From: an uncultured virus (IMG/VR IMGVR_UViG_3300010429_001259) | Lineage: Duplodnaviria > Heunggongvirae > Uroviricota > Caudoviricetes | Reading direction: 5' to 3' (one strand) | IMG/VR virus record: IMGVR_UViG_3300010429_001259 | DNA: 64,000 nt | Part shown: positions 30,500-56,171 of the stretch, in pieces | How the letters are laid out: the number at the start of each line of letters is the position of its first letter | How positions within the stretch are numbered: position 1 is the first letter of the stretch | Translations under genes and position numbers: made by a program | The notes under the pieces: generated by a model | The model's input: the letters and a program-made list of their open reading frames with translations, nothing else | Database searches by the model: none | Told to the model about the DNA's origin: nothing

Positions 30500-30735
30500 A
30501 CAAGCTGGTGAGTGTTGGATGGTTGCTACTCTGGTGCTGGCCGAAGGGCTTGTACCTGCACACAAAACTGATTCTGCTGGCGTGTGCGTCAGTGGCCATG
30601 GCAAAGAACTGAACAGCGGCGATCGCCCAAGTCAGGGGTGGGTGCCGTTCACGGGGCGCGTGTTCCTCGTTACCCAACCCCTGACCGCGGTGGCGCCTTG
30701 TACCTTGGCAGGGCGCCACCGCACCCCGGAACGCA

Positions 30736-30799
30736 GTAAAATTCAGTGCAAACTTACCTGAGCCACTGGCTATGACGGTTCCTCGACAGGAGCCTCATC
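30736..30799 (+). promoter_or_regulatory. conserved leader copy 1 (TAAAAT box, kink-turn hairpin, RBS-sequestering hairpin)
   Basis: GTAAAAT..AAACTTACCTGAGCC-ACT-GGCTATGACGGT-TCCT-CGAC-AGGAGCC; second copy at 40952-41013. Confidence 0.75.
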
Positions 30800-31204
30800 A
30801 TGGCCAATGCCTTCTACACCAAAGGGAAAGAAAAGATTCTTTCCGGCAGCATCAACTGGGTGTCTGACACTATCAAGGTGATGCTGGTCAAGAACACCTA
30901 CCCACAGAACCTGGCAACCGACGAGTTTGTCTCCGGCATCTCGGCTTACCGGCTGAACACCGATCAGACCCTCGGGTCCAAGTCTGTCACGGGCGGTGTC
31001 TTCGACGCTGGTGACGCGACCTTCACTTCCGTGACGGCTGGCGACACCAGTGAGGGCGTGGTGATCTACAAAGACACCGGCGCCGAAGCCACATCCCCGC
31101 TGCTGATCTACATCGACACGATCACTGGCTTTCCGCTGGCGACCAACGGCGGAGACATCACCATCGCATGGGACAACGGCGCTTACAAGATCTTCAGCCT
31201 GTAA
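30800..31204 (+). CDS. virion structural (tail-associated) protein
   Basis: MANAFY..GK..IL...INW.SDTIKV.LV, PLL.YID, NGGDITI.W. Confidence 0.75.
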   Translation: MANAFYTKGKEKILSGSINWVSDTIKVMLVKNTYPQNLATDEFVSGISAYRLNTDQTLGSKSVTGGVFDAGDATFTSVTAGDTSEGVVIYKDTGAEATSPLLIYIDTITGFPLATNGGDITIAWDNGAYKIFSL

Positions 31205-31213
31205 GGGATCGGC

Positions 31214-32086
31214 ATGGCTGGCGACGCCAACTACAACAGCGTCTCGCTGCTGCTGCACGGCAACGGCTCTGACGGTTCGACGACCGTCACGGACAACAGC
31301 CCGTCACCAAAAACCGTCACCGCCGTCGGAAATGCACGGATCAGAACCGCGCAAAGCAAGTTCGGCGGTTCGTCGCTCTATTGTGACGGCTCTGGAGACT
31401 ACTTTTCACTCACCGGGGTGTCCTTCGGTACAGGTGTATTCACCGTCGAGGGCTGGGTGTACATTGTCGCAACGGACAAGACAAACGCCCTGATTGACAC
31501 GCGCAATACCGACATAACGACGAGCGGCTTTTTGTTGTATGTCCGGTCAACAAACAAACTGACGGTCGGCACCGGAAATCCTTTTGTAGCCACGGAGGGA
31601 GCAACAACGGTTACAACAGGCTGGCACCACTTTGCCCTGGTTCGCACCGGAGGCAACTTTTACACCTATCTGGACGGCGTGCTTGAAGCGACAGTCGCCA
31701 ATGCGGCCACGCTGTCCAGCACAAGCTGGCGCATTGGAAATACGTGGGACGCATCGGCGAACGGCGAGGTCTATATTGACGACCTGCGCGTAACCAGTGG
31801 AGTCGCCAGGTACACCAGCAATTTCACGCCTCCCGAGCGCGCATTCCAGGATGGTTTGGGCGAGATAGAAGGCGTTGTGCGGGACGGCACAGGGGCGCTC
31901 TGCTCGCGCACAGTGCGTGCGTACCGGCGAGACACCGGGGCGCTGGCTGGGTCGGCGGTCAGCGACGCCACGACAGGGGCTTACCGCATTGGCACACCAA
32001 CACTTGACGAAGTGAGCGTCATCGCCCTTGACGATGCGGCAAGCACCTTTGAAAACGATCGAATCATCCGGGTTGTACCAGCATGA
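31214..32086 (+). CDS. tail fibre/spike protein with LamG (ConA-like) domain
   Basis: VSLLLH..G, SKFGGSS, FTVEGW, WHHFALVR, YIDDLRVT.GVARYT.NFTPP. Confidence 0.85.
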   Translation: MAGDANYNSVSLLLHGNGSDGSTTVTDNSPSPKTVTAVGNARIRTAQSKFGGSSLYCDGSGDYFSLTGVSFGTGVFTVEGWVYIVATDKTNALIDTRNTDITTSGFLLYVRSTNKLTVGTGNPFVATEGATTVTTGWHHFALVRTGGNFYTYLDGVLEATVANAATLSSTSWRIGNTWDASANGEVYIDDLRVTSGVARYTSNFTPPERAFQDGLGEIEGVVRDGTGALCSRTVRAYRRDTGALAGSAVSDATTGAYRIGTPTLDEVSVIALDDAASTFENDRIIRVVPA

Positions 32087-32817
32087 CGCACAAAATAATC
32101 GACCGCTGCAAGGAAACGACCGGCACGACCGGGACCGGAAACCTGACGCTCACCGGGCCAGTGGCCGGGTGCGTGTCCATGGCGTCTGCCCTGACCAGCG
32201 ACGGCGACACAAGCTGGTTCTGTGCAGAGAACGGAACCGAGTGGGAAGTGTTTCTTGGCACCCGCGTGAACTCCACCACGCTGTCGCGGTCGCTGATCTC
32301 GTCCAGCACCGGCAGCACGGTCAACTTCACGGCGCCGCCGGTTGTGTTCTCGACGGTGCCAGCGTCGCGAATGCCGGTTGCCCAAGGGCCTGCATTTTCT
32401 GCCTACCTTAGCAGCCCACAAACAGTGTCGAGCGGGGCTGCAACAAAAGTCGCCTTCAACGCGGAAAGCTTTGACATCGGCGGCTGCTTTGACAGTACAA
32501 CCAACCGCAGGTTTACCCCGACGGTGCCCGGCGTCTACAGCGTGTCATGGCTGGTCACATTCAGAAGCACTGGCGCGATGTCGGCCAGCACCTATATGCC
32601 AACGCTCCTGAAGAACGGTCAGTTGGTCGCGGGCTCGAACTATGCAAACTGTGCCCCAACCACTGCCGCACTTGGAGGCCAGGCCCTAGTGTTCATGAAC
32701 GGGACGACCGATTACCTGGAGGTATACGGGGTCGTTACGGGAACTGGCACACTGACGTTCGGTGGCGGGGTTGGTGAGACGTTGTTTTCTGCGTTTCTCG
32801 TCACCGCCACTGGATAA
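32083..32817 (+). CDS. tail fibre protein with C1q/TNF-like C-terminal domain
   Basis: DRCKET..TTGTG..TL N-terminus; PAFSAY..F.....D....F...RFTPTVPGVY..MNGTTDYLEV..FSAFLV. Confidence 0.8.
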   Translation: MTHKIIDRCKETTGTTGTGNLTLTGPVAGCVSMASALTSDGDTSWFCAENGTEWEVFLGTRVNSTTLSRSLISSSTGSTVNFTAPPVVFSTVPASRMPVAQGPAFSAYLSSPQTVSSGAATKVAFNAESFDIGGCFDSTTNRRFTPTVPGVYSVSWLVTFRSTGAMSASTYMPTLLKNGQLVAGSNYANCAPTTAALGGQALVFMNGTTDYLEVYGVVTGTGTLTFGGGVGETLFSAFLVTATG

Positions 32818-32820
32818 CCC

Positions 32821-34164
32821 ATGCTCGGCTTCGCCCCACTTTCGACGCTGCCGTTCGGCGCAACGCCGGCGCCGCTGGGGCCTTACGTTCGCCCGGCGGC
32901 AGCGTCGGCGGACATCTCGTTCAACGGCACCACTTATACAAGCCCGGCGTACAACGCTGCGAACCTGACGTTTGTAACGGCACCGGCGAACAACGTCACG
33001 GCGGTCCCGCCGGTGGCAACCTTCGGGGTGCCCATTGCCGCCTACGCACGCACCTCCACCGCAACTGGGTTGGCGCCGACAACGAATGTGCCCGCGCCTG
33101 GGCATCGCCTTACGCAGCCGACATCGGGAATCTCAACAACGTCCTTCGGGGTGGGGTTCGGCGCGAACTACCAGCGGCCGGTCGGGTTCAGCACGACTGG
33201 GATTGGGGCCGCCAGGATATTCCCGTACAACACAGCGCCGTGGCCAGTCTCGACGCAGATCGGTTCTCCACGGCTATTCCCGTTCCATGTGGCGCCGTGG
33301 CCTGTCTCGACCCGGTTCGGTGGAGTGGGCGGCAACCAGTTCTGGCGCGCGCCGACAATGGCGGTCGTCGCGCGCCTGGGGACGCCGACAACGCCGACGA
33401 ATCGCACAGGGGAGGCGTCGGGTTTTGCTGTCGCTAAACTCGGTAGCCCGCTGGCTATCCGCCACTTGCCGCCGAACACGAACATCATCTGCATGGCAGA
33501 AGACTTCAAGCCGGTGCATTTCGGCACGCCCGCGGCCAACTGGGACCAGTCCGGGCAGGTGCAGGTCGTCGCGCCGACCGTGCAGTTCGGGGCGCCCAGA
33601 GCGATCACCGCGCACCACGTTGACGGCCTCGCGCCGATCATGCGGTTTGGCACGCCGATCATTCGCACGACGCAGCGGGCGCTCGGCGTCAAGTCAACCT
33701 CGTTTGGGTCGGCAAAGGCGATCCTGACGCAGCACGGCACTGGCTCGGCCCCGATCATTCACGTCGGTTTGGCCAAGGCGATCACCACGCATCATGTAGG
33801 AAGTGCCGCGCCGACTGCCCAGTTTGGCGCGCCGACCATTCGCACGACGCATCGAGTATCGGGATTCAAGCCCGTGCAGTTCGGCACACCCAGGGCCATC
33901 CTGACGCAGCACGCGACCGGCACTGCGCCCAAGGCGCGCTTCGGCACACCGAAGACCATCCGATCGAATTGGTATGAGGTCCGCGGCTTCTGCCCGTTTC
34001 GGTCGGGCACGCCACGCGGCTACCAGCGCAACAACCGCCGGGCCGACGGGTTCGGTCCTGTCCAGTTCGGCGCGCCGGCGGCATTCCATACGCACTGCTG
34101 CACATCCATCCCGCCAATTGCCAGGCTCGGCAGGCCGCTGCTCAAGAGGAACACAACATGCTGA
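32821..34164 (+). CDS. repeat-rich structural protein (FGxP repeats)
   Basis: MLGFAPLSTLPF start; many ~20-aa repeats containing FG(T/A/S)P. Confidence 0.7.
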   Translation: MLGFAPLSTLPFGATPAPLGPYVRPAAASADISFNGTTYTSPAYNAANLTFVTAPANNVTAVPPVATFGVPIAAYARTSTATGLAPTTNVPAPGHRLTQPTSGISTTSFGVGFGANYQRPVGFSTTGIGAARIFPYNTAPWPVSTQIGSPRLFPFHVAPWPVSTRFGGVGGNQFWRAPTMAVVARLGTPTTPTNRTGEASGFAVAKLGSPLAIRHLPPNTNIICMAEDFKPVHFGTPAANWDQSGQVQVVAPTVQFGAPRAITAHHVDGLAPIMRFGTPIIRTTQRALGVKSTSFGSAKAILTQHGTGSAPIIHVGLAKAITTHHVGSAAPTAQFGAPTIRTTHRVSGFKPVQFGTPRAILTQHATGTAPKARFGTPKTIRSNWYEVRGFCPFRSGTPRGYQRNNRRADGFGPVQFGAPAAFHTHCCTSIPPIARLGRPLLKRNTTC

Positions 34165-35387
34165 CCTTCAAATCGTTCACAGGGATCAACAATGTCATCC
34201 CTTCGGCCAGGCTGACGCATGACCGGGAATCGAAGACTGCTGAACTGGCCTCTGCGGTCAACGTAGACATCGGCCTGACTGGTGAAGTGCGGCGTCGCGC
34301 CGGGTATTCCGAGCTGCTGGCGACCTGTCACAAGAACCTCCACCAGGCGGACGGGTTCATCCTGGCCACCGTGGACGGCGGCGACCTGATCTCGATGGAC
34401 GCTGCCGGTGACAACCGCGTCACGTTGTATCCGTCGCTCGGCGTGTCGCGGGTCTGGTATTGCAACCTGCCCGACGGACGCACGACATTCTCGAACGGCC
34501 TGATCTGCGGTGTGACAGACGGGGCCACGGCTACTGCGTGGGGCGTTCCGATCCCTGCGTCGCTCGGCGCCCTGTCCGCCACAGCCGGCGACTTGTACCC
34601 GGGCGACTATCAGTATCAGCTCACGTACGTCCGGCTCAGCGACGGCCTTGAGGGCGGGCCAATCTATTCGAATCCAATTCCGGTAGCCAGCGGCGGCATC
34701 ATCCTGACCGGTCTGCCGCAACTCGACGGCTACAAAATCAACGTCTACATTACCGCCCACAACGGCGACTACGGGTTCTATGCTGGGGAGACTACCGGCA
34801 CGACGTTTACCTACACAGGCAAGAACGACGCCTTGGTACGCCCTTGTCACACGGACAAGATGTATCCGGCGCCGGCCGGTACTGTGCAGGCGATGTTCCG
34901 CTCCCGCGTCTTGACGGCCGTCGAGAACGTCTTGTATGCATCCCGCCCAGGTGGCTGGGAGTTGTTCGACATCCAACGCGACTTCAAGCAGTTCTCTGCC
35001 CCGATCACCCTCGTCCAACCCGTCGACGACGGGCTGTACGTCGGTACGACCGACGAACTGGCGTTTCTCGCTGGCGGCGAGTTCGACAAACTGGTGTACC
35101 GCCGAGTGGCCGGTCCAACAGTCCTCGGGTCTGGCGTTTCGGTCCGGGGAGAGCTGATCAAGTTGGGTGAGGGCACTGGGCACGGAGGCGCTATGATTTG
35201 CATAGCGGACGGAGTAATCTGCGCGGGGTTCTCCGGGGGTAACATCGTCCGGATAACCGAAAAACGATATCAGGTCTCCGCCACCGAGGTGTCTGCCACG
35301 TTCCGGATGGCGCGCGGCCGAGTCCCACAATACGTCGCGGTTCCACAATACGCCGAGGTTCCACAACCCGGCGGGGATCCGGTATGA
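34158..35387 (+). CDS. tail structural protein
   Basis: F.GINN..A.NVDI..G.V.RR.GY N-terminus typical of podovirus tail/stabilisation proteins. Confidence 0.65.
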   Translation: MLTFKSFTGINNVIPSARLTHDRESKTAELASAVNVDIGLTGEVRRRAGYSELLATCHKNLHQADGFILATVDGGDLISMDAAGDNRVTLYPSLGVSRVWYCNLPDGRTTFSNGLICGVTDGATATAWGVPIPASLGALSATAGDLYPGDYQYQLTYVRLSDGLEGGPIYSNPIPVASGGIILTGLPQLDGYKINVYITAHNGDYGFYAGETTGTTFTYTGKNDALVRPCHTDKMYPAPAGTVQAMFRSRVLTAVENVLYASRPGGWELFDIQRDFKQFSAPITLVQPVDDGLYVGTTDELAFLAGGEFDKLVYRRVAGPTVLGSGVSVRGELIKLGEGTGHGGAMICIADGVICAGFSGGNIVRITEKRYQVSATEVSATFRMARGRVPQYVAVPQYAEVPQPGGDPV

Positions 35388-37984
35388 ACCTCAACGACCC
35401 GTCCTTCCTTAAGTTCGACGGCTCGCCCGATCTCGGGCGGGTACCACCGCGTCTGGTGATTGATGGGAACGGCGGCGTCCTGACAGGGGAACAATGGAGT
35501 GCCGTGGAGCACGCCTACCTGCACTTCCGCAGTATCTGCCGGCTGTCGGTGGCGCCGTTTCACTCCGAGCAAGTCGCGCTCAGCGACGGGACCGAGGTAT
35601 GGATGTGGTCGCTGCAGGGGCGAGACGAGGTAATAGTTCGGCCGAAGTCAGGCAAGACAAAAAACAAACTCCCGCATGGCTTTGCCGTGGCGACGAACTG
35701 GCACAGCCCGATGATTTATCGCCGCGACCTGAACGACGGCGTGCACTGGCTGCTCGGTCCGCAGGCTCCACAGATTGTTAGCCACGCAACAGCGCACTAC
35801 GACAACCAAGTGTTTCGTAAGAACGTCGAGGCGAACGAATTTTTCAACCTGCCGCACGTCCGGAACCACTGGAATACCGTTCTGTGGGACTACCGGATGA
35901 ACGGCGCGCCGACTGTCAGCGCAACACCTGCCGTCCCGTTCCTGCTCAAGAACAGCACGACGGATCAGTTCACCATCGGCTCGCCACACTACGCGGCCGG
36001 CGGTGAACTGATGGATGCCACCGGCGCTACGATTTACACCATGGCCGACGAGGCTCCGATCCTGGTTCCTGACCACCCGGACTACCCGGAGTCGGTACAC
36101 CAGCGCGCGGCAATCACGGATGCCGCCGGAAACCAGATCGCATTGCAGGCCATGCGCTTCACGGTGATCTCGCCGACGAACAATATCTGGAAGTTCCGGT
36201 TCTGGAATGAACGACTCAACCGCACGGATGACAGCACCTACGCACTGGTCGAGCGGGCTGCGACAGAGTTCACAACCCCGTGGGGGAAGCAGACAACGAC
36301 GACGACCTCGATCAACGACAACAGCCTTGGCGAAGACCCGGCGCTGCTGTTCAAATTCAAGGCAACCAGCGCCATGAAGCCGGGTGGCTACCACTCCGGT
36401 GGCCTGTGGAACGGTCACTTTGGATGGTCCGGCCCTGATGCATGGAGCGACATAACTGGCGTTACGATCAGAGGCTCTGATAACCAGTCGCTGCGACAGA
36501 TCAAGGAGCAGGGTGCAGGCGTCGCCACCTACGACAAACTGATCGCCACGGCTGGGGAGACTGAAACCGGGCACATCCCGATCGAGCGTCGGTTGAACTA
36601 CCCGGCGAAGATTTTCTGGCGCGGCGGCTACCACCAAAAATGGAGCTGGGTGGAAGATGTCGCAGAGCTTTTGCTTGGCAGCAAGTTTGCGACGCTTCCG
36701 TATAACTACAGGGTCATCGACGCAGCAATCACAAGATACAACACAGAATACGACGTAGACGGTACTCCGACCATTACGGCCAAACTGGGGTGGATCGATT
36801 TGCTGCTACTGGAGGGGACCACGACAGGACGAATGAGTGGGAAAGAATACATCAATCAGTATGCACAGATTGGTGTTTACCCGTGGGTGGACTATATGTT
36901 CCCGTGGAGCAATTTCTACATCACCCAAGAAATCAAGCGTCCGACTGACTTCCCATACAGCCCATCGGGCGACCCATACCCAGGGTACACGGCATGGGCC
37001 GAGGCATCCAACGTCAAGGATCTGTACTGGTCTGACTACCTGGCACATGGAACAGGAACATCTTACTTGGGCGGCCCTCCACCACAACCCGCCATCAAGT
37101 ACGAATACCCGTTCAACGACCGACCGGCCAACACGGTCAGCTATGCGCTCAAGAGCCGCTACGTGATCGACTTCGACCAGAAAGGGCGCTTCTACGCGGC
37201 GATCCGGTGCGAAGTGACGGCCACCGGCGCCGCGTGGAAGGAAGACATCGCGGTCTACAAGGGGTTCATGGTCAAGGACACGGACCCGAGCTACACCGTG
37301 AAAATCTGGTTCGAGTGCAACTGGGGCGGTGAACCGTTCGGCACGCCAGCCACCGGGCCGACCGAACTGCTGCTGGTCGAGGAAACCATCACGCGCCCGA
37401 TGTTCGAGGCGATCGTAGTCTCGCAGTTCAGCCCGTGGTATTGGCCCTACCCGGCCTACATCGACCGAGACTGCAAGGTGCGCACGCCGCCCGAGCCGGT
37501 GCCGGACGAAAACTTCATGATGATGTTCGCCAACCTGGCCAGCCACCAGGGCGTGAACACGAACCTCTGCTGCGCCGATGTGCGACCCGACATCATCGGC
37601 ACCGACATTGAGAAGTCCTACAGCAAAGACGGCGTGGAGTATTCCTACGAGGACAACGGGATCGTCACGCCGCATACCCGGTACGTGACCGGCCAGCTTT
37701 ACGCGCGAACCTTCAAGCTGTCGGACTTCTACGAGGCGTTCTGGATGCTGTACCAGTTGAAGGTGGACGCAGCCGAGGGCGATGTCCAGGATGAAGGCTA
37801 TCCGAAGTGGTTCTATCATCCGGTCATCAAGGCTGCGATGGACGTGACCCGGCACATCGAAGTCCGCGACGGGGTGATCGTGCAGTGGTCTGACAACATT
37901 CCGACACCGATCAGCGGGCACCCGCCGACACCAGAGCCGCACCCGGCTCCGACCGACCGAATCATCAAACTCTACAGGGTGTGA
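35384..37984 (+). CDS. large virion protein of unknown function
   Basis: 866-aa ORF, aromatic/Pro-rich, coupled at both ends. Confidence 0.75.
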   Translation: MNLNDPSFLKFDGSPDLGRVPPRLVIDGNGGVLTGEQWSAVEHAYLHFRSICRLSVAPFHSEQVALSDGTEVWMWSLQGRDEVIVRPKSGKTKNKLPHGFAVATNWHSPMIYRRDLNDGVHWLLGPQAPQIVSHATAHYDNQVFRKNVEANEFFNLPHVRNHWNTVLWDYRMNGAPTVSATPAVPFLLKNSTTDQFTIGSPHYAAGGELMDATGATIYTMADEAPILVPDHPDYPESVHQRAAITDAAGNQIALQAMRFTVISPTNNIWKFRFWNERLNRTDDSTYALVERAATEFTTPWGKQTTTTTSINDNSLGEDPALLFKFKATSAMKPGGYHSGGLWNGHFGWSGPDAWSDITGVTIRGSDNQSLRQIKEQGAGVATYDKLIATAGETETGHIPIERRLNYPAKIFWRGGYHQKWSWVEDVAELLLGSKFATLPYNYRVIDAAITRYNTEYDVDGTPTITAKLGWIDLLLLEGTTTGRMSGKEYINQYAQIGVYPWVDYMFPWSNFYITQEIKRPTDFPYSPSGDPYPGYTAWAEASNVKDLYWSDYLAHGTGTSYLGGPPPQPAIKYEYPFNDRPANTVSYALKSRYVIDFDQKGRFYAAIRCEVTATGAAWKEDIAVYKGFMVKDTDPSYTVKIWFECNWGGEPFGTPATGPTELLLVEETITRPMFEAIVVSQFSPWYWPYPAYIDRDCKVRTPPEPVPDENFMMMFANLASHQGVNTNLCCADVRPDIIGTDIEKSYSKDGVEYSYEDNGIVTPHTRYVTGQLYARTFKLSDFYEAFWMLYQLKVDAAEGDVQDEGYPKWFYHPVIKAAMDVTRHIEVRDGVIVQWSDNIPTPISGHPPTPEPHPAPTDRIIKLYRV

Positions 37985-37986
37985 CC

Positions 37987-38427
37987 ATGACCAATGCCAT
38001 TGCGATGAATACGCTGACCGGCGCCGTGACCGAGTACGACAACTTCGAGTTCCAGTCCGTCACGCCGACACACGCGGGGGCCGCAACCGGGCTTTTCCTG
38101 CTGGGCGGCGACCTGGACATCGATCAACCCATCATCGGGTCGATCCAGACCGGCAAGACCCTGATCGATGAGACGCGGAAGAAGTACGTCGACTTGGTCC
38201 ACTTTGCCATGACCGGCGACGGCACAGCGGCCTGCGCTGTGGTAGGAGCGAACGCCTCGTACTCCTACGACTTCCCCGTACGTGACACCGGAGTCTCGCG
38301 CTCTCAGCCGGGGCGCGGCATCCGGGAGAACTACCTGGCCTTCGGCATGACAAAAACTGACGGTGGGGACTTTCAACTCGATAAAATCGATGTGTCGGTC
38401 GTCGCCTCCACGACCAGAAAGGTGTAA
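37987..38427 (+). CDS. hypothetical virion protein
   Basis: AMNTLTGAVTEY.NF.F.S; in operon. Confidence 0.7.
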   Translation: MTNAIAMNTLTGAVTEYDNFEFQSVTPTHAGAATGLFLLGGDLDIDQPIIGSIQTGKTLIDETRKKYVDLVHFAMTGDGTAACAVVGANASYSYDFPVRDTGVSRSQPGRGIRENYLAFGMTKTDGGDFQLDKIDVSVVASTTRKV

Positions 38428-38430
38428 GCC

Positions 38431-40929
38431 ATGACCACCCCAGCAGAATTTGTCTCACAACAGTTCTCAGCGGCGCAAACATATGCGGACACCGCCACGA
38501 GACAGCTGACGAGTTTCCTGAACGTCCTGAACTCCGCGGCGAGTTACACAGTCCCGACGATCGACCTGACCTGGGAAACGGTCGGCGCGCCGGCGGTTGT
38601 TGCGCCGCCAGAACCGCCGACTCTGGACGACGTCACATTTGAGACGCCAGAGGAGCCGACGGCACCGACCTTGACGGTGCCGGACATCAATGCGCCGACC
38701 TTCAGTGATGTTGCGCCGACCCTGAGCTTTGGCTCCGCGCCAGTCATGGCGAACACCGAGGCTCCGGTACTGGACTTCGGAACGAAGCCGACCCTGAGCG
38801 CCGGCGACGCGCCTGCGCTTGACTTCGGAACCGCCCCAACCATCGACGCCGGCACTGCACCGACGCCAGCTTATGGCGCCGCCCCCGCGGTGAGCATCCC
38901 GGCAGCGCCGACTCTCGACTTTGGTGTGGCGCCGACAATCAGCCTGCCTGCCGCACCCGATCTGTCGATCGGCGCGGCCCCGACGCTGGATTTCGGCGTG
39001 CGGCCGACCGTTGGCGCCGTCGCTGACATCACGTTCCCGGACGAGATTTCGTTCTCCATGCCGTCTGCGCCATCGCTCATGTCGCTTTCCACGCCGACGT
39101 TCGCGGGCGTGAACATCCACGAAGATTGGATGACCAAGTTCGACAACATCCCGACACTCGATCTGGTTTCCCCAACTCCCTACAGCTACGCGCATGGGCC
39201 TGAGTACGCCTCCACCCTGCTGAGCAACCTGAGCACAACCCTGAACGCGCGCCTTTCGGGCGGCACCGGTCTGCCCGAGGATGTCGAGCAGGCCATCTGG
39301 GACCGCGCGCGCAGCCGTGAGACCCAGACTGCCTTGGCCAACGAGGCAGACGTCCTGCGCACCTCAGACGCGCTGGGCTTCCCGATGCCGCCCGGCGTCG
39401 TGGCAGCGCAACTGCGAATGGCGCAGCAGGACTACTATGACAAGCTCTCTACCCTGAGCCGCGATGTGGCGATCAAGCAGGCCGAGCTTGAGCAGGAGAA
39501 CATGAAGCAGACGATCCTGGCTGGCATCCAGCTGGAGAGCAAGCTGATCGACTACAGCTACCAACTTGAACGACTGACCTTCGAGGCCGCCAAGGAGCAG
39601 GCCGACAACGCCATTCAGGCCTACAACGCCCAGGTCGAAAAATACAAGGCGCTGCTGAGCGTGTACAGCATTTACTCGGATGCCTACAAGACCATCATCA
39701 GCGCCGAACTGGCCAAGGTCGAGGTCTACAAGGCCCAGCTGCAGGCCGAAGAGACGAAGGCCCAGGTGAACATGACGCTGGTGGGCCAGTACAAGGCCGA
39801 GATCGACGCCCGCATGGCCTTCGTGGAAATCTACAAGGCCCAGATCGGCGCGGCAAACGCGCGCATCGGTCTGGAGCAGGCCAAGCTGAGCATGGTCGGC
39901 GAAGAGATCCGCGCCTATGTGGCGGGAATCAACGGAGAGACAGCCAAGCTGGAAGCGTACAAGGTCGGCGTTCAGGCCAAGACCGTTGTGGCCGATCTCT
40001 ACAAGAGCGGGGTTCAGGCCGAGATGGCGAAGGTCGAACTCTACAAGGCTGGCATCGAGGCGCAATCCGCGACCATTGCAGCGTACCGCGCCGGCATCGA
40101 GGCTCAAATGGCCGGCATCGAGGTCTACAAGACTGCGCTCCAGACCGACCAGATCAAGGCTGAACTCTACAAGCTCGGTATTGAAGCCCAGATGACCACG
40201 GTTCAGGCGTACAAGGCTGGGGTCGAGGCGAAGGCCGCAGTCGTCGAGGCATACCGCGCCGCGATCCAGGCCGATGCAGCCAAGGTCGAGCTCTACAAGG
40301 CCGGCGTAGACGCGGAGACGACCAAGATCGAAGCCTTCAAGGCTGGCGTGCAGGCTGACGCCACCGCGGCCGAGGTCTACAAGATCGGCGTGGACGCTCA
40401 AGTCTCCCAGGTCGGCGCGTTCAAGGCGAAGGTGGATGCCTTCGCGGTTCAGTCCGGCATAGCCGTGGAGACCGCCAAGGCGAACATCGCCAGGATGGAC
40501 GCCATGGTGCGCGCCAAGGCCCTTGAGTGGGACGGCTACAAGGCCAGGCTGTCGGCCGGCGAGGTCGCCATGCGCGGCCTGATACAAAGCAACGAACTGA
40601 TGATCCAGAAGTACCGCACCGAGGGCGACCTCGGCGTCGCCCGGTACGGCTCGGCCATCAAGCGCTGGGAAGCCCAGCTCAAGGACTATGAAGCCGGCAA
40701 GCAGGCTATGATTCAGGTGGCGAAGATCAACGGCGACCTGGCCATGCACGCTGCTTCTGTCCGGGCCGATGCCGCCAAGGCTGGTGCTCAGGTCCACGCC
40801 CAGCTGGTCGGGTCTGCGTACTCAATCATGAAGGTCCAGGCCAGTGTGGCAGGGCAGGGCTCGACGAGCGTGCAGTACCAATACCAGAACAGCACCCAGA
40901 CTGCGCCGCCGTCGATCACGACGGCATGA
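38431..40929 (+). CDS. repeat-containing coiled-coil virion protein
   Basis: 832 aa; Pro-rich APxLDFG repeats followed by 14-aa YKAG repeats. Confidence 0.8.
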   Translation: MTTPAEFVSQQFSAAQTYADTATRQLTSFLNVLNSAASYTVPTIDLTWETVGAPAVVAPPEPPTLDDVTFETPEEPTAPTLTVPDINAPTFSDVAPTLSFGSAPVMANTEAPVLDFGTKPTLSAGDAPALDFGTAPTIDAGTAPTPAYGAAPAVSIPAAPTLDFGVAPTISLPAAPDLSIGAAPTLDFGVRPTVGAVADITFPDEISFSMPSAPSLMSLSTPTFAGVNIHEDWMTKFDNIPTLDLVSPTPYSYAHGPEYASTLLSNLSTTLNARLSGGTGLPEDVEQAIWDRARSRETQTALANEADVLRTSDALGFPMPPGVVAAQLRMAQQDYYDKLSTLSRDVAIKQAELEQENMKQTILAGIQLESKLIDYSYQLERLTFEAAKEQADNAIQAYNAQVEKYKALLSVYSIYSDAYKTIISAELAKVEVYKAQLQAEETKAQVNMTLVGQYKAEIDARMAFVEIYKAQIGAANARIGLEQAKLSMVGEEIRAYVAGINGETAKLEAYKVGVQAKTVVADLYKSGVQAEMAKVELYKAGIEAQSATIAAYRAGIEAQMAGIEVYKTALQTDQIKAELYKLGIEAQMTTVQAYKAGVEAKAAVVEAYRAAIQADAAKVELYKAGVDAETTKIEAFKAGVQADATAAEVYKIGVDAQVSQVGAFKAKVDAFAVQSGIAVETAKANIARMDAMVRAKALEWDGYKARLSAGEVAMRGLIQSNELMIQKYRTEGDLGVARYGSAIKRWEAQLKDYEAGKQAMIQVAKINGDLAMHAASVRADAAKAGAQVHAQLVGSAYSIMKVQASVAGQGSTSVQYQYQNSTQTAPPSITTA

Positions 40930-40951
40930 TAGGCAGGAGGGCAGCAGGCGG

Positions 40952-41013
40952 GTAAAATGCCGAAACTCACCTGAGCCGCGGGCTATGACGGTGCTCGAAC
41001 CTGGAGCACACTC
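40952..41013 (+). promoter_or_regulatory. conserved leader copy 2 (TAAAAT box, kink-turn hairpin, RBS-sequestering hairpin)
   Basis: GTAAAAT..AAACTCACCTGAGCC-GCG-GGCTATGACGGT-GCTC-GAACCTG-GAGCAC. Confidence 0.75.
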
Positions 41014-43263
41014 ATGGCCTCTCCACGCCTTCGCCTCGAACCGCTCGAGGCAGACATTCCGGCCCCGAACACGGCGATGTCGGTCGCTATGGATGCGGCC
41101 AAGAATAACTCGCCGCGTCTCTGGGCGCCGCAACCTGGCTTGCCTCCGGGCGTGGCGCAGGCAGGGGATCTGGCCTTCGACAACGGCCGTCCGCGCCTCT
41201 CCCCGCTCAAATTCGACCCGACCCCCATCCCGGAGGCTCCGAGACTGACGACGTCGCCTGGCGCCGCTCCCGGGCGAGCCTTGGTGCCTGTGTACGGGGC
41301 CGGTGAAACGACCCGAGTCGGTCCACTACCGTCCGCCCCGCCGAGCCCGGCGTTCTATCCTCCGACCGTTACGGACGGGCAGCTGCGCGGTGGGTACACC
41401 GGTCCGACTGGCGCACGCCCGAATTTCACAGCAGGCAGTGATGGGGCTTTCTCGCCATGGAGTCAGTTTGAGTCTGAGGTCCGCGCACGAGGAAACCCCT
41501 GGGCGGGCAAGTCTGAGTTCGCAGGGCCGGAACCCATGCGCGGCGGCGTACCGACTGCGCCGACTGCGCCGTCTGTCGCCCCTCCTACTCTCCGTGAGCG
41601 AGCAGCGGGCGCCGCGCGCACAGCTGGCGGGCTCGCCGTAGGCGTCGCAGCGGCTTACGGCGGCAACAAGCTGGCCGAGGCGATGAGCAATGCCGGAAAT
41701 CCAGGCAGTGCCGCGCCGGGCGCGCCCACCATCATGGGCTCTCAGGCAGCGAGTCAGATCCCTGCTGACGGGTATCCAAAGGCGCCGCCTGCCCAACCCT
41801 ACAACTTCTGGACGGACAGCGAAGCCGGGCGCAACCTCGGCAACGCAGCGCAGGCCGTCGCGCCGCTCGGCGGTCTCGCCGCCGCCACGAAAGTGCCGGG
41901 TACGGCCACCCGTGCGGCAGGGCTCGCTGACGCGGCGCTCGTCGGGCTGGCGACCGGGGTCAATGAGCAGCGCCAGCAAGCTGTGCCGCCTGCTCGCGGC
42001 ACTATGCCAGCCTCCGCCCCTACCCCCGTCACCGCCGCCTCCACCCAGCCAATCACCTTCGCGCCCACGGACGGTCCGGAGCAGCCCTCGGGAGCGCGCA
42101 CCAACGTCCTGCGCGTCGGCAACAGCTACAGTGGTCCGGAGGGCGTTGGCGGCAACATCTCCATCAACAACGCTGGACCCCGTGGCACCGTCAACATGAT
42201 GGGCGGTCAACCCGGTGACGCCACCCCGGCGGAACGCCTGGCCCAGATCGAACGCGACACTCTTCATGCCCGGGAGATGAACGGCCTGCGCGCCCAGCTC
42301 ATGGACCGTGGTGCCCCGCCCCCGGGCGTGACGATGTTCAGCGGCGAAACTCTCGGCAGTGCCCTGCGCAAGCAGTCCGACGCCCAGGGCTCGCTCAGCA
42401 CGATCAACAACAGCGACATCGGTGCGAAAGACCGTGCCCTGCTGGCGCAGAACGAGCGCAACCAGAGCCTCCAGGCTGCGACGACGCGGCGCAGCCAGGA
42501 CATTCAAGCCGAAACCCTGCGCCGCGATCAGGATTTCTCCCATGCCGACCGAGTGCTGAACGTGCAGACACAAGCCGCCACGAACCGCCGAGACCAAGAC
42601 ATGCGGCTTCAAGGACAGCTTTTGCCGAAGCAGATGGAGATCCAGATGGCGCAGCAGATGCGCCGTATCCACGGCGATCTGATGAAGGCCTCCGGCGGCG
42701 ACTACGGCAAGGCTGCGCAACTGGCCAGCGCGTACGGGCTGGGCGACCACGCGAAGAACTTCATGGAGCTCGGTCAGGCCGAGCAGAAGTTCGGGTCGGA
42801 AAAACTCAATGCTGTGCGCGACATGTTCAAGGGCCAGTTTGCGAGCCCTGACAAGGACGGCAAGCTCGTACGCGACGAGTTGCTTGAGTCCCAGGCAGCG
42901 GCGATGGCCCTCGCGGCGAATCCCAGCTTCGCCAGCATGCCGCAGGATCAGCGCAACGAACTCGTCGGCAACATCGGTCGTCAGGTCAAGCAGCTGCAGA
43001 GCGCGAACATGAAGAACGGCGACATCTGGTCGTGGATGAAGCTCAAGAACGCGCCGTCGGCATACACGAGCATGCCGAGCCCGGAGGAACTGCGCGGTGC
43101 GACCTACGGCGACGCGGGATGGGGTGCGATCCTGCCCGGCGGAGCGAACCGCCTCGACCGCCAACTGCGCCTGAAGGATGGGCGAGAGTTCAACATCGAT
43201 CCGAGCCTTGTCACCCAAGGCGACATTGCTCTCTGGGAAAAGTACGGCGCCAAGCCGCGATAA
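41014..43263 (+). CDS. putative internal virion/ejection protein
   Basis: 749 aa, Pro/Ala/Gly/Gln-rich low complexity, RR.QD repeats; upstream of the giant protein. Confidence 0.65.
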   Translation: MASPRLRLEPLEADIPAPNTAMSVAMDAAKNNSPRLWAPQPGLPPGVAQAGDLAFDNGRPRLSPLKFDPTPIPEAPRLTTSPGAAPGRALVPVYGAGETTRVGPLPSAPPSPAFYPPTVTDGQLRGGYTGPTGARPNFTAGSDGAFSPWSQFESEVRARGNPWAGKSEFAGPEPMRGGVPTAPTAPSVAPPTLRERAAGAARTAGGLAVGVAAAYGGNKLAEAMSNAGNPGSAAPGAPTIMGSQAASQIPADGYPKAPPAQPYNFWTDSEAGRNLGNAAQAVAPLGGLAAATKVPGTATRAAGLADAALVGLATGVNEQRQQAVPPARGTMPASAPTPVTAASTQPITFAPTDGPEQPSGARTNVLRVGNSYSGPEGVGGNISINNAGPRGTVNMMGGQPGDATPAERLAQIERDTLHAREMNGLRAQLMDRGAPPPGVTMFSGETLGSALRKQSDAQGSLSTINNSDIGAKDRALLAQNERNQSLQAATTRRSQDIQAETLRRDQDFSHADRVLNVQTQAATNRRDQDMRLQGQLLPKQMEIQMAQQMRRIHGDLMKASGGDYGKAAQLASAYGLGDHAKNFMELGQAEQKFGSEKLNAVRDMFKGQFASPDKDGKLVRDELLESQAAAMALAANPSFASMPQDQRNELVGNIGRQVKQLQSANMKNGDIWSWMKLKNAPSAYTSMPSPEELRGATYGDAGWGAILPGGANRLDRQLRLKDGREFNIDPSLVTQGDIALWEKYGAKPR

Positions 43264-43272
43264 GGACTGACC

Positions 43273-46200
43273 ATGGCCGATCTCCGCACCGCGCTCTACA
43301 CCGGCAACGGCAACCTGTCTGCAGACCAGTTGGCGCGCATTGACGCCGCCGACATGGGCACCCTGCGCCGCTCCTACACCGGCGGCAGGATCACGAACGA
43401 CATCAACCCGATGCTGGCCGACATCGCCTCCCTGGAGGCGGACGGCACGCCGGAGGCGCGGACCAAGGCCGCTGGACTACGCGATCAGGTCAGCGCGCTG
43501 GAGCAGCGCCGAGCGGCGTACGCTCCGGAGGTCGGGAAAGTCGAGAACATCAACGGCATCGGGTCCGGCCTGACCTGGGCCGGCGAACAAGTGGGGCAGG
43601 GCGTCGCGTCCATGCAGGACATGATGCTCACGGGCGCTGGCCTGACCGCCGCCGGAAGGGCTGTCGGTGCGATTCCGCATCCGATCGCGAGGGCCGCAGG
43701 GATGGCGCTGCAGGGCGGTGGCGTCCTGGCCCCGTACCTCATGAACCAGCGCCAGCTGGCTGGCGAGGCGTACGGGGACATGACGGAAGACTCGGCGCTC
43801 ATGGCCCGGACCACGCCGCAACAGCGCTACGAGATGGCGCGGAACTACGGTGCCCTGGCAGCGATCCCGGACACGGCGCTCCCGGCGCTGGTCGGGCGGC
43901 AGCTGGCTGGCGCGGGGCTGCGCAAGGGCTTGTCGAAGATCGGCCCTGCCGCCATGACCGGGCTCGAGTTGCTGGGCGAGGGCACGACGGAACTCGGCCA
44001 GGAAGTGGGCAAGCAGTACGCCCTGGGCCAGTTGAACCCTGAGCGCGACACGAGCCAGGATGCCTCGGCGAATCTGAACTCTTTCCTCGGTGGCGCAGTG
44101 GGTGCAGGCCCATTCGCTGCGGCTGGTGCCTACGCCGATGCCGGCTACCGGCGCGTCGGCGACACAGCCGAGAAGATCGGCACGAAGGCTGGTCAGGTCG
44201 TTGATCTGGCGGGTCAGAAACTCGGCCCGATGGCCGAAGAAGTGGCGAAGAAAGGCCGCGGCTGGATCGGAACGGGCAAGGAAAAAGTCGACGCCGCCCT
44301 CGACTCGTTCAAAGGCGAAGACGGGCGGGTCGATCTGAGCAAGGTCGTGGCCGCAGGCAAAGAAACTGCCGGTGAAGTCCGCGACAGCGCCGCGCGCGCG
44401 GTGTTCGGGATCACGCCGCAGGAGCGGGATGTTCTCGAGCAGAACGTTCCGGAGGACATCCTCAACGACCAGGACCCCGCGAAGATGTCTGCGTGGCTTA
44501 CGCAGAACGATCAGGCCCGCGCCGGCATGGTCACGGATCGTCTATCTTCCATCGACGATCCGCAGGCCGCGGACATTGTCAGCCGAATCGCCGCTGCGAC
44601 GCAGGCACAGGACACCGGCGCGCAGCAGCTGGCCACCGACGAAGGGGCCAAGTACCTGCTCGATCGGGCCGAGGAAACCAAACTCGCCGGTCGTGCTGAA
44701 CGCTTTGCCCAGACCGCCGGCTCCGTTGCGGCGACCGCTGGGAAAGGAGTCCTTGAGTTCGGCAAGGCCGTCGTGCGCGGCGCGAAGGAGGGTCTGTCGA
44801 AGAAAAACGCACAGGTCGAACCCTACGACGCGTGGCGCGCGCGGCGCGTCGCCGGCGAGTCGTCTGCGGAGCGCATCCAGCGCGAGGACTCTGCAGCCCA
44901 GGCCGGGAAGACGAAGCCTGCCCCGGTCGACGCGGCAGGGGCTGAGCGCAGCCGGCGCAGGGCTGAACTGTTCGGCGAAATCCTCGCCGCCCAGGCCAAG
45001 GACAAGGGCGTGCTGAGGGCGCACGGCACGCGGGCTCAGGAAGCCGCGCCGATGCTGATGCGGGAGATGGGCTACCAGCTGGCGGACCTCGCCGAGAGCT
45101 GGGGCCTGAACGAGGGCGGCACGAAGCCCTCCCGGGCGGCAGCGGGACGTCAGGCGTCGGGGCTCACGTATGCCCTCGACCGGGTCGCGAACAGCCTGCG
45201 GGTGGCGTTCGGGAAGGACGCTGAAGCGACGGTGAACGACCTCGAGTCTCTGATGCAGGAGCCGGGGGCGAAGCCGTTCTTCGACCACATGCGCGAGTCG
45301 ATCGCTGCCGGCCGCACGCCAGCTGGCCGGGTGAAACTGGAGCAGGCCCGCAAGGACGTGGCGAACCAGATGATGAGTCTCCTGCCCGTCGAACAGGCGA
45401 AGGCGATCATCGCCAACGGCCAGCAGATGGATCTTCTGGAGCACATCGAGGACTTCGCGGACGGTCATGCCGCGCCGGCGCTGCGCCCTGCGCTCGAAGC
45501 CGCCGTCGGCAAGGAGAACCTCACCAAGATGGTCGACCTCGTGAATGGGGTGACCACGAGCAAGGACCGCGGCAACGAGGCGCTCCTGGAGGCGCGGGAC
45601 GATGACACCACCGACTACGAGCTTCGGCAGGCCGAGAAGAAATCCGTCAAGGGCTCAGGACCGAAGATCTACGGCGTGTCGAAGTCTCCAGTGCTGCGCG
45701 ACAACCCGTTCGCCCCGAACGAGCGCATGTCGAAGGAAGAGTTCCAGCGGTGGGCGAACGAAGAAGCCCAGCGCAAGAGCGAAGGCCTGCCGCCGCAGAT
45801 CGAGCCTGAATTCAAGCGCCCGATGCTGTTCAAGACCGGCGACCCCCAACTCGACGCGCGCATCGCGCACATGGGCGAGAAGCTCGACTCGACCTACCAC
45901 ATCGCCCCGCGCTCGGCCTGGGAGGTGATGGACGACACGGACATGCCGCTGGCCCGCCGGCTGGCGACGTACCGCGACTACATGCGCGAGGATGGTCAGA
46001 ACACCGGCATGATCCAGAAGGCGTTGATGGATGCGATGGATGGGCACGACTTCGGTGAGTGGGCGAACCCCGCCGGCGGAACGTCCGCCGAGCAGCAGCG
46101 GGGGAGCGGGATCAAGACGACGACCCCCGCCGCCCAGACAAAGTCCAAAGCCCGTCTCAGCGCCGGCCAGCGCAACGTCCTGTTCAATGAGATGCAGGCG

Positions 46201-51891: not shown

Positions 51892-52172
51892 TTGGTGGAT
51901 TCACTTTCTAGTTGGACAGTGGTCGAGCCCCAGGACTCGGATGTGATGACGAGTACATAGCCCTGTGACTCGTCGGTGGGATCGATGATGTAGCGCGATA
52001 CGATCTGGCCGGCGTTATCCATCGCGATGCGATTTTTCTGAAGCTGTTTTGCGCCGACGACACCATGATCACTGACAGCATGGCGGGCGATCAGATCGAG
52101 TGGTGTACGGCCGAGGCGCTCACGGGCTGCGTCGGTGATATGTAGGTTGCCGAGGAGGAAGTTTGAGTACAT
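51888..52172 (-). CDS. hypothetical protein (plasmid/phage family)
   Basis: F.LG...IT..A..ARH..D.G..N..A..SRY..VIT..STT pattern. Confidence 0.7.
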   Translation of the reverse strand: MYSNFLLGNLHITDAARERLGRTPLDLIARHAVSDHGVVGAKQLQKNRIAMDNAGQIVSRYIIDPTDESQGYVLVITSESWGSTTVQLESESTK

Positions 52173-55499: not shown

Positions 55500-55572
55500 G
55501 GTGCTCCTTCAATCAGAATACACAGGAGCGCAAGGACTATGATCACAAGGACAGCTATCCAAGACTTATTTG

Positions 55573-55935: not shown

Positions 55936-56171
55936 CCCGCCCTCACTTTCGTCCCTTGCAACACAGCCATATCAGCAGCTTGATCGTGCGCGATTTCGAT
56001 TTCGCCGGGGCTAAGTTTGCGGAACGTGACCCATTGGCCATCAGCGCCTTTGGTGTAGAGCCAGCCGTAGTCCTTGGCTCTTGCGTCAAGCTGGGCCGCG
56101 CAGTCCGGGTTTACTTGAAGCAGCGTCAGCCCGTTTGGCAACTGGTTGAATGGGTTGGTGTGATAGGTCAT
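55932..56171 (-). CDS. hypothetical protein
   Basis: 79-aa coupled ORF. Confidence 0.6.
   Translation of the reverse strand: MTYHTNPFNQLPNGLTLLQVNPDCAAQLDARAKDYGWLYTKGADGQWVTFRKLSPGEIEIAHDQAADMAVLQGTKVRAG

What the first reader, a model, noticed from the sequence alone, without database searches (positions are those of the whole stretch)
30736..41013. Repeated kink-turn / anti-SD leader in front of two virion genes: candidate phage translational switch
Seen: two intergenic leaders 10 kb apart (30736-30799 and 40952-41013) share GTAAAAT..AAACTYACCTGAGCC-NNN-GGCTATGACGGT. As RNA this folds as ACC-U-GA-GCC / GGC-UAU-GA-C-GGU: a 3-bp stem, a 3-nt bulge and tandem G.A/A.G pairs, with CUGA opposite AUGAC. 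Each copy is followed by a hairpin of different sequence but the same role (GGUUCCU-cgac-AGGAGCC; GUGCUC-gaaccug-GAGCAC) that buries the Shine-Dalgarno and shares bases with the 3' end of the first helix. Established: this geometry is the kink-turn (box C/D-like) consensus bound by L7Ae-type proteins. Inference: a promoter plus a protein-responsive structure switch that sets expression of the tail-fibre block and the ejection-protein block.
Basis: partly seen in the sequence, partly recalled or inferred. Interest (0 to 1): 0.85.

Follow-up and report, generated by a model that had tools for sequence, protein, structure and literature searches.

The report
Kink-turn-like leader before phage virion genes
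Two late-gene leaders of this phage carry a small conserved RNA hairpin with the sequence signature of a kink-turn, wired so that it competes with a second fold that hides the ribosome-binding site and start codon; the same element turns up in unrelated phages and is not in the RNA family database.

Summary
ACCTGAGCC-NNN-GGCTATGACGGT occurs exactly twice in the window (30756, 40969; none expected by chance). Each copy lies behind a rare TAAAAT hexamer and 20-21 nt before an ATG.

The element is not private to this phage. About 17 distinct leaders carry it, all co-oriented with a gene and 20-30 nt before its start. They come from GC-rich relatives, AT-rich unrelated phages and one Ottowia genome.

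The sequence meets every sequence-level kink-turn rule: a C:G pair at -1b:-1n, a 3-nt bulge, invariant G.A/A.G, and a 3b.3n pair that is never Watson-Crick.

In GC-rich leaders the 3' half (GGCURUGA-N-GGUG) also pairs with the Shine-Dalgarno and the start codon (UCAUGGCC), giving -15 to -27 kcal/mol. The two folds exclude each other.

Best reading: a cis-acting translational control module on late virion mRNAs.

Not supported: an L7Ae-type partner. No such gene is in the window, and published rules predict that 16 of 17 copies fold with Mg2+ alone.

Weak points: no covariation in the kink-turn helices, no mapped transcription start and no identified binding factor. Rfam has no match.

The parts
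30737..30742 (+). TAAAAT, -10-like hexamer of a putative late promoter with no -35 match
   Evidence: One of only 4 TAnAAT hexamers on the + strand of 14.8-52 kb. The same class of hexamer lies 6-18 nt upstream of the motif in 16 of 16 GC-rich leaders.
30756..30779 (+). Motif copy 1: ACC-U-GA-GCC / ACU loop / GGC-UAU-GA-C-GGU (kink-turn-type hairpin)
   Evidence: 44.6 bits with model R1.
30777..30794 (+). Inner helix GGUUCCU-cgac-AGGAGCC, burying the Shine-Dalgarno and sharing GGU with the motif
30798..30805 (+). UCAUGGCC (start codon 30800 plus second codon), which pairs with GGCUAUGA of the motif (30768-30775)
   Evidence: MFE fold, z = -3.4. The 8-of-8 complement occurs at only 2 of 27 gene starts in the window.
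30800..31204 (+). 134-aa gene (phrog_644; annotated as minor tail protein or subunit in some phage records), first gene of the tail block
40953..40958 (+). TAAAAT, -10-like hexamer of the second leader
40969..40992 (+). Motif copy 2: ACC-U-GA-GCC / GCG loop / GGC-UAU-GA-C-GGU
   Evidence: 49.5 bits.
40991..41009 (+). Inner helix GUGCUC-gaaccug-GAGCAC, burying the Shine-Dalgarno
41012..41019 (+). UCAUGGCC (start codon 41014), which pairs with GGCUAUGA (40981-40988)
   Evidence: MFE fold, z = -3.7.
41014..43263 (+). 749-aa gene with no known family, followed by a 2799-aa virion protein gene (43273-51672)

Best explanation
The element is a cis-acting RNA module at the 5' end of late virion-gene mRNAs that sets translation initiation by choosing between two exclusive folds.

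Shown by sequence and comparison:
- A rare -10-like hexamer lies 6-18 nt upstream, so the motif would sit 0-12 nt from the 5' end of the transcript.
- The motif can form a short hairpin, ACC/GGU plus GCC/GGC, around an asymmetric loop with tandem G.A/A.G. This matches the standard kink-turn consensus.
- In GC-rich leaders its 3' half (GGCURUGA-N-GGUG plus an anti-SD) also pairs with the Shine-Dalgarno and with (U)CAUGGCC at the start codon. The result is a long hairpin that hides the whole initiation region.

Inferred:
- The 5' hairpin forms first on the nascent RNA and keeps the initiation region open.
- It is much weaker by nearest-neighbour energies, so it must be held by its kink-turn tertiary fold (Mg2+), by an unknown factor, or only kinetically.
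- Otherwise the RNA collapses into the closed state.

The module would therefore limit or time the synthesis of tail and ejection proteins relative to head proteins, whose operon lacks it. In AT-rich phages the hairpin has a 7-10 bp outer stem, is the stable fold, and leaves the initiation region free. The hairpin itself is therefore the conserved unit and the switch is an add-on.
For: Specificity: 2 exact copies in the window, 0 expected.

Spread: the relaxed pattern gave 78 hits in the three collections. Of these, 25 have an SD plus start codon 20-30 nt downstream on the same strand; 3 of the 25 are the window's own contig. Of the other 53, 50 lie in stop-free frames of 114 codons or more. 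Model R1 and a looser pattern added 4 more leaders, with 4-nt loops and L1 = C.

Unrelated hosts of the element: the window shares no protein at E 1e-4 with the AT-rich phage G008 or with the Ottowia region.

Optional module: 18 of 18 homologous leaders of the 134-aa gene (L003-L020) lack it, and several have just TAnAAT plus a short leader. Five records of cultured or uncultured relatives and four near-complete IMG/VR relatives also lack it.

Kink-turn rules: -1b:-1n is C:G in all copies. GA/GA is invariant; a scan that freed these positions returned 52 hits, and only the 2 known leaders have leader context, both with GA. 3b.3n is A.G in 12 leader groups, C.U in 4 and U.U in 1, and never Watson-Crick. 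The homologous leaders of the window (copy 2) and G003 differ within the 26-nt core at exactly 3n, L2 and 3b.

Exclusive folds: the MFE buries SD and AUG in 9 of 11 GC-rich leaders (L043 buries only the SD region; in L058 the start codon pairs instead with the 5' flank) at -15 to -27 kcal/mol, against -8 to -13 with the motif hairpin forced. The nascent RNA folds into the motif hairpin in 8 of 11. The inner helix shows a compensatory C-G to U-A change between the GGUGCUC/GAGCACC and GGUGUUCC/GGAACACC forms. L1 U to C turns the U.G opposite the AUG into C-G.
Against: No covariation supports the two kink-turn helices. All 6 core pairs are invariant in 15 of 15 sequences, partly because the search patterns fixed them.

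The outer helix also shows no double changes, and shuffles equal the observed value. Part of its pairing follows from AUG plus a common Ala codon; 5 other window genes reach 7 of 8 pairs.

The family is small, about 17 leaders from a few lineages, so the counts are not independent.

No transcription start is mapped. The metatranscriptome material available was contigs only and cannot show starts.

The closed fold is 7-17 kcal/mol more stable than the open one, so the 'open' state is hypothetical.

AT-rich copies have no competing fold, so a switch cannot be the universal function. No binding factor was identified.
Confidence: 0.5

Rival explanations
1. It is an RNA element, but its job is mRNA stability or processing rather than a translational switch. 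A 5'-terminal (or intercistronic) structured hairpin would protect the late mRNA from 5'-end-dependent decay or mark a processing site. On this reading the SD/AUG hairpin in GC-rich leaders is a separate, constitutive damper.
For: With the inferred promoter, the hairpin sits 0-12 nt from the 5' end. In AT-rich phages it is a stable stand-alone hairpin between two genes, behind another hairpin, and nothing competes with it.
Against: A protective hairpin needs no invariant asymmetric loop and no fixed 20-30 nt distance to the start codon. In GC-rich leaders its 3' strand is systematically shared with the SD/AUG helix.
Confidence: 0.18
2. It is a DNA site: an operator just downstream of the late promoter, bound by a phage or host protein that blocks or activates transcription.
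For: The sequence is extremely conserved without covariation, as expected of a protein-DNA site. It lies within about 40 bp downstream of a -10-like hexamer in all GC-rich cases.
Against: Spacing to the hexamer varies from 6 to 18 bp, while spacing to the start codon is nearly fixed. The site is an asymmetric 3-versus-6-nt interrupted repeat. AT-rich copies have no such hexamer (0 of 3), and their outer stem is lengthened by different, complementary bases. The pairings use G.U. All 25 leader-type hits are on the coding strand.
Confidence: 0.12
3. It is a nascent-RNA element that modifies RNA polymerase (put- or nut-like processive antitermination) so that the long late operons are read through.
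For: There are two copies per genome, each directly behind a promoter and ahead of a roughly 10-kb operon. A terminator-like hairpin precedes leader 1 and its relatives.
Against: A fixed distance to the start codon and wiring to the SD/AUG are not needed for antitermination. G003 has only one copy. The scan found no intrinsic terminators above the shuffled expectation inside the operons: 12 found against 11.3 expected.
Confidence: 0.08
4. It is a decoy or upstream initiation site. GGAG, a 9-nt spacer and AUG/GUG inside the motif would recruit ribosomes to a leader ORF that opens the hairpin.
For: In 12 of 17 leader groups the 5' half reads GGAG, and the RUG lies 9-10 nt downstream.
Against: The window's own copies read UGAG. 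The frame of the RUG relative to the main ORF is 28, 29, 30 or 34 nt in different leaders, and 30 versus 28 nt in close relatives (L023 versus L390). No conserved stop follows.
Confidence: 0.04

Closest known systems
Archaeal L7Ae autoregulatory kink-turn stem-loop in the 5' UTR of the l7ae mRNA (Daume 2017, PMC5539422, search listing only; Huang, Ashraf & Lilley 2019, PMC6298567, abstract and passages read)
   Same: A short stem-loop in a 5' leader with a 3-nt bulge and tandem G.A/A.G. The helices are short and weak, the terminal loop lies on the C helix in some members, and the Shine-Dalgarno is in close proximity. Folding of the kink-turn decides whether the ribosome-binding site is accessible.
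   Different: In the archaeal case the regulated gene encodes the binder, the kink-turn cannot fold without the protein, and folding hides the SD (an OFF switch). Here the regulated genes are virion genes and no L7Ae-family gene is present. Most copies have the ion-folding sequence type. In GC-rich leaders folding of the hairpin would free the SD and AUG.
Kink-turns as architectural elements of bacterial riboswitches and ribosomal-protein leaders (SAM-I, T-box, L10 leader; PMC4382518 Results read; the L10 and T-box examples are recalled)
   Same: A bacterial cis-regulatory leader context. The 3b.3n = A.G / -1b:-1n = C:G sequence type is predicted to fold without protein.
   Different: Those kink-turns sit inside large ligand- or protein-binding folds. 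Here the kink-turn-type hairpin is essentially the whole conserved element, 24-30 nt long.
Box C/D RNA kink-turn (C box RUGAUGA, D box CUGA)
   Same: The AT-rich copies read AUGAUGG opposite CUGA, with a U.U at 3b.3n and G:C at 4b:4n, as in box C/D (PMC5689011 section 11).
   Different: There is no guide region and no C'/D' pair. The terminal loop is 3-4 nt. No Nop5, fibrillarin or L7Ae genes were found. -1b:-1n is C:G.
Delayed-folding control of translation in RNA phage MS2 maturation gene and lambda N-leader control (recalled, not read here)
   Same: The leader folds into a closed structure that hides the initiation region, and translation would be possible only before or unless that fold forms.
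   Different: The sequences and folds are unrelated. No kink-turn-type anti-sequestor is known there.

Membership tests
Standard kink-turn (Lilley nomenclature) | Three-nucleotide bulge between a Watson-Crick C helix and an NC helix | tested here: met
   GCC/GGC, then the U/C-R-U bulge, then the NC strand, in all 15 aligned copies and in the 4 extra variants. This is tested at sequence level only.
Standard kink-turn (Lilley nomenclature) | Tandem G.A (1b.1n) and A.G (2b.2n) pairs | tested here: met
   GA opposite GA is invariant. With these six positions freed, 52 IMG/VR hits included only the 2 known leaders in leader context, and both have GA.
Standard kink-turn (Lilley nomenclature) | -1b:-1n usually C:G; 3b.3n usually not Watson-Crick | tested here: met
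   C:G in all copies. 3b.3n is A.G in 12 leader groups, C.U in 4 and U.U in 1, with 0 Watson-Crick. The rules come from PMC4382518 (Results) and PMC5689011 (sections 8 and 11).
Standard kink-turn (Lilley nomenclature) | Helices supported by covariation | tested here: inconclusive
   The 6 core pairs never vary. Only the outer extension differs, at 7-10 bp in AT-rich copies against 3-5 bp in GC-rich ones. The search patterns fixed the core.
Standard kink-turn (Lilley nomenclature) | Kinked geometry with cross-strand A-minor contacts | not testable with these tools
   This needs FRET, a gel-shift test of kinking, crystallography or chemical probing.
L7Ae-dependent regulatory kink-turn | A cognate L7Ae/L30e-family protein encoded by the phage or the regulated gene | tested here: not met
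   81 window ORFs were scanned against Pfam (35, 46). None matched an L7Ae-family or other known kink-turn-binding domain. Host proteins could not be examined because the host is unknown.
L7Ae-dependent regulatory kink-turn | Kink-turn sequence of the type that stays unfolded without protein | tested here: not met
   16 of 17 leader groups have 3n = G or 3b = C together with -1n = G, the ion-folding type by the published rules. Only the L032 group (U.U) is of the box C/D type.
Box C/D guide RNA | C and D boxes plus a guide region and C'/D' motifs | tested here: not met
   The element is a 24-30 nt hairpin with a 3-4 nt loop and no room for a guide. Rfam gave no snoRNA/sRNA match on the motif.
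Any Rfam 15 family | A match at gathering score, or any overlapping match at E up to 10 | tested here: not met
   0 matches in the window at gathering score. There were 7 weak matches in 4 leader loci, none overlapping the motif.
Sigma-70-type promoter | A -10 hexamer plus a -35 hexamer at 16-18 bp, and a mapped start | tested here: inconclusive
   A -10-like TAnAAT is present and strongly enriched. The -35 is a weak match at copy 2 only (TAGGCA). No start is mapped.

The most novel reading that the evidence does not exclude
This may be a previously undescribed class of phage riboregulator. A minimal kink-turn hairpin would act as the anti-sequestor of a start-site-burying helix on late virion mRNAs. 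It would be shared by horizontal transfer among unrelated phages of Proteobacteria and of AT-rich hosts, and read by a still unknown kink-turn-binding factor of phage or host in bacteria that have no L7Ae homologue. That would be the first natural kink-turn translational switch in bacterial viruses, and a lead to a new family of bacterial kink-turn-binding proteins.
Probability: 0.25. Interest if true: 0.85.

Novelty: new variant of a known kind. Interest (0 to 1): 0.66.

Why it matters
Post-transcriptional control of late genes in tailed phages is poorly mapped, and natural kink-turn regulators are known mainly from archaea and eukaryotes.

This is a 24-nt element that keeps the same letters in phages with no shared proteins and very different base composition. 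It always sits 20-30 nt before a virion-gene start. That points to a strong and specific constraint: a precise tertiary fold or a conserved partner.

If the switch works as proposed, it offers three things. It gives a compact natural part for translational control in bacteria. It explains how tail and ejection proteins are dosed separately from head proteins. And it gives a bait for finding kink-turn-binding proteins in Proteobacteria.

Tried and rejected
DNA similarity to deposited phages: only short coding matches near leader 1, none at leader 2.

Exact window motif in IMG/VR: 0 hits.

Relatives of the AT-rich downstream gene: 79 loci, no motif. The 400-nt flanks mostly did not reach gene starts, so this says little.

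151 genomes of the family of the Ottowia genome: only that genome has the motif. A 26-bit hit in G048 has GU instead of GA and lies in coding-like sequence.

rRNA mimicry: the weak second hit in the Ottowia genome is not in any Rfam RNA.

Sigma-54 and -10/-35 readings of the motif itself were rejected by eye, because the required GC or T bases are not conserved among copies.

Hammerhead and GAAA-receptor readings were rejected from recalled consensus; the GAAA after stem II and the CCUAAG strand are missing.

Sequencing runs: two metatranscriptome runs of one sample hold contigs of a roughly 90%-identical relative that cover both leaders. These are contigs, which cannot show starts, strand or level, and DNA may be present in the library. 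Nothing was concluded from them.

The third model hit in the window (25785-25824, minus strand, 22 bits) lacks the inner stem and lies antisense in a gene.

A column-wise covariation count of the inner SD helix was not attempted, because its register differs between leaders in the MAFFT alignment.

Our-findings look-ups returned nothing.

Five literature searches found no description of a kink-turn leader in phage late genes. This covers only the open-access library searched.


Full report
**The observation.**
The pattern ACCTGAGCC-NNN-GGCTATGACGGT has two matches in the 64-kb window, even with three mismatches allowed, and none in 100 shuffles.

Each copy is preceded by GTAAAAT and followed by a hairpin. 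That hairpin uses the GGT of the first helix and contains the GGAG of the ribosome-binding site. The ATG follows 20 nt (30800) or 21 nt (41014) after the motif. Rfam 15 has no match, either at gathering score over the window or at E up to 10 over four leader loci.

**The setting.**
The window is a podophage-like genome. A + strand structural block runs from 15455 to 51672 and holds terminase, portal, major head protein, a GP4-type fibre protein, lysis genes, the 134-aa phrog_644 gene, a Hc3-type head-closure protein, an 832-aa repeat protein, a 749-aa protein and a 2799-aa virion protein. Minus-strand replication and early genes flank it.

No RNA polymerase gene was found among the ORFs scanned. 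The closest cultured phages by major head protein are Pseudomonas phages KPP25 and phiR18 (64% identity) and Acidovorax phage AP1.

On the + strand of 14.8-52 kb, TAnAAT occurs only four times:
- 8 nt before the terminase-small ATG;
- in leader 1;
- 49 nt before the 832-aa gene;
- in leader 2.

These are most simply the -10 elements of late promoters that lack a -35. Two of them carry the motif.

**Spread beyond this phage.**
A relaxed pattern, ACCNGAGCCNNNGGCTNTGANGGT, found 2 IMG/VR loci, 53 metagenome loci and 23 genome loci.

Of these 78 hits, 25 have a Shine-Dalgarno and a start codon 20-30 nt downstream on the same strand. Three of the 25 are the window's own contig. Of the other 53, 50 lie inside stop-free frames of at least 114 codons and look like chance coding matches, many in collagen-like repeats.

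A covariance model (R1) and a looser pattern added four more leaders, with a 4-nt loop and C at bulge position L1. I count about 17 distinct leader groups.

They precede four kinds of gene:
- the 134-aa gene;
- a set of genes with Pro/Ala-rich N-termini at the position of the 749-aa gene;
- one other structural-looking gene;
- in AT-rich phages, a large tail-fibre-like gene.

The AT-rich phage G008 and the Ottowia pentelensis region share no protein with the window at E 1e-4.

The element is optional. All 18 homologous leaders of the 134-aa gene in L003-L020 lack it. So do KPP25, phiR18, AP1, phiA008 and one uncultured record, and four near-complete IMG/VR relatives. G003, a relative, has one copy, at the leader-2 position.

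**Kink-turn features.**
Written as RNA, the hairpin is NC strand ACC, 3n, G2n A1n, and C strand GCC. A 3-4 nt loop follows. Then come GGC, the bulge L1-L3 (U/C, R, U), G1b A2b, 3b and GGU.

- Every copy has -1b:-1n = C:G and the two GA dinucleotides.
- When the GA and 3b/3n positions were freed in an IMG/VR scan, 52 hits came back. Only the two known leaders have leader context, and both have GA.
- 3b.3n is A.G in 12 groups, C.U in 4 and U.U in 1. It is never a Watson-Crick pair.
- The window's copy 2 and the homologous G003 leader share the same GCG loop. Within the 26-nt core they differ at exactly three places, 3n, L2 and 3b, the positions a kink-turn leaves free. 3n and 3b change together.
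- In the four L1 = C variants, the A-U pair that nearest-neighbour folding puts between A1n and L1 cannot form. A plain 4-bp stem is therefore not what is conserved.

Published rules state that 3n = G or 3b = C (but not both) and -1n = G permit folding in Mg2+ alone, while U:U with 4b:4n G:C is the box C/D, protein-dependent type (PMC4382518, abstract and Results; PMC5689011, sections 8 and 11). By these rules 16 of 17 groups are of the self-folding type. The geometry itself cannot be tested here.

**What does not support the kink-turn.**
The six core base pairs never vary, in part because my patterns fixed them. A scan that freed the inner stem returned 118 rows (its limit), and only the two known leaders had a complementary stem.

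The only helix variation is in the outer extension: 7-10 bp made of A/U in AT-rich copies against 3-5 bp in GC-rich ones.

**The second fold.**
In both window leaders the minimum-free-energy structure is not the motif hairpin. It is a long hairpin in which GGCUAUGA pairs with UCAUGGCC (start codon plus second codon), and GGU(G) plus an anti-SD pairs with the SD. The energies are -21 and -24 kcal/mol, with z of -3.4 and -3.7.

The MFE buries both SD and start codon in 9 of 11 GC-rich leaders. L043 buries only the SD region. In L058 the start codon pairs instead with the 5' flank. The range is -15 to -27 kcal/mol, against -8 to -13 when the motif hairpin is forced.

The two folds share GGC and GGU, so they exclude each other.

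- In the window, the full 8-of-8 complement to GGCUAUGA occurs only at the two motif genes out of 27 starts. Five others reach 7 of 8.
- The outer helix pairs in 86% of cells, against 25-52% in slid registers, but shows no double changes.
- The inner helix differs in register between leaders.
- The inner helix does show a C-G to U-A exchange between its two main forms.
- The L1 U to C change makes the pair opposite the G of AUG a C-G.

With a start about 7 nt after the hexamer, the nascent RNA up to the end of the motif folds into the motif hairpin in 8 of 11 leaders. AT-rich copies have no competing fold.

**Mechanism.**
I read this as a translational control module. The closed hairpin is the ground state. 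The 5' half of the motif is an anti-sequestor that can hold the 3' half in a small kink-turn-type hairpin, keeping SD and AUG free.

The open fold is much weaker on paper. It therefore needs kink-turn tertiary stabilisation, an unknown factor, or the head start of co-transcriptional folding. These steps are inferred.

A protein partner is possible but not indicated. No L7Ae-family or other known kink-turn-binding domain appears in 81 scanned window ORFs.

The rivals are a stability or processing hairpin, a DNA operator, put/nut-like antitermination, and a decoy initiation site. They are weighed in their own sections. The near-fixed distance to the start codon, strand co-orientation in 25 of 25 leader-type hits, variable distance to the hexamer and use of G.U pairs favour an RNA role tied to initiation.

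**Comparison with known systems.**
The nearest known system is the archaeal L7Ae 5'-UTR kink-turn stem-loop (PMC6298567, abstract and passages). It has the same architecture and the same proximity to the SD. It differs in partner, in folding class and probably in sign. The element is not a box C/D RNA and not an Rfam family.

Five full-text searches found no report of such a leader in phages.

**Verdict.**
The feature is real and conserved, it is not in Rfam, and I found no report of it in the library searched. I file it as a new variant of a known kind (a kink-turn-containing leader regulator), with moderate confidence in the mechanism.

Noticed in passing
window 15441-15457: TACAAT lies only 8 nt before the ATG of the terminase-small ORF (15455). 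If it is the -10 of the first late promoter, the mRNA would be leaderless or nearly so, or the true start lies further downstream. The same CTACAATCGAC string forms the leader of the 134-aa gene in relatives L012 and L013.
   Followed up: partly
window 38382-38387: A fourth TAAAAT hexamer lies inside the 148-aa ORF, 49 nt before the start of the 832-aa gene (38431). It may be an internal late promoter without the motif.
   Followed up: no
window 30699-30729 and loci L003, L009, L012, L013: A GC-rich hairpin (GGTGGCGCC...GGCGCCACC) follows a conserved GTTACCCAACCC block just upstream of leader 1. Relatives keep the block and a hairpin of different sequence. It is likely the terminator of the lysis operon, but it has no T-run.
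   Followed up: no
window 39685-40431: The 832-aa protein (phrog_10969) holds at least 9 copies of a 42-nt (14-residue) repeat beginning TACAAG (Tyr-Lys).
   Followed up: no
window 52130-52206 / 52565-52641 and 55386-56867: The early region contains direct repeats: a 77-nt pair at 91% identity 435 nt apart, and several 23-62 nt families at 84-96% identity. These suggest tandem paralogous small genes or repeated regulatory sites on the minus-strand arm.
   Followed up: no
window 14001-52000 versus the flanks: The structural block is 59-68% G+C, and the two minus-strand arms are 51-57%. This is a sharp compositional split within one phage genome.
   Followed up: no
L120 18277-18778 (Ottowia pentelensis contig, minus strand): The bacterial copy of the motif precedes a 149-aa ORF. 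The ORF's N-terminus matches the start of a longer gene (at least 493 aa, reaching the end of the fetched locus) in metagenome locus L050, so it looks truncated. Neighbours are ORFs of unknown family and a RES-domain ORF, flanked by ordinary chromosomal genes. It is likely a prophage remnant.
   Followed up: partly
L026 1515 and L023 1036: In G003 and L023 the RUG inside the motif is in frame with the downstream gene, so mechanical ORF calling starts the gene 30 nt too early, inside the leader element.
   Followed up: yes
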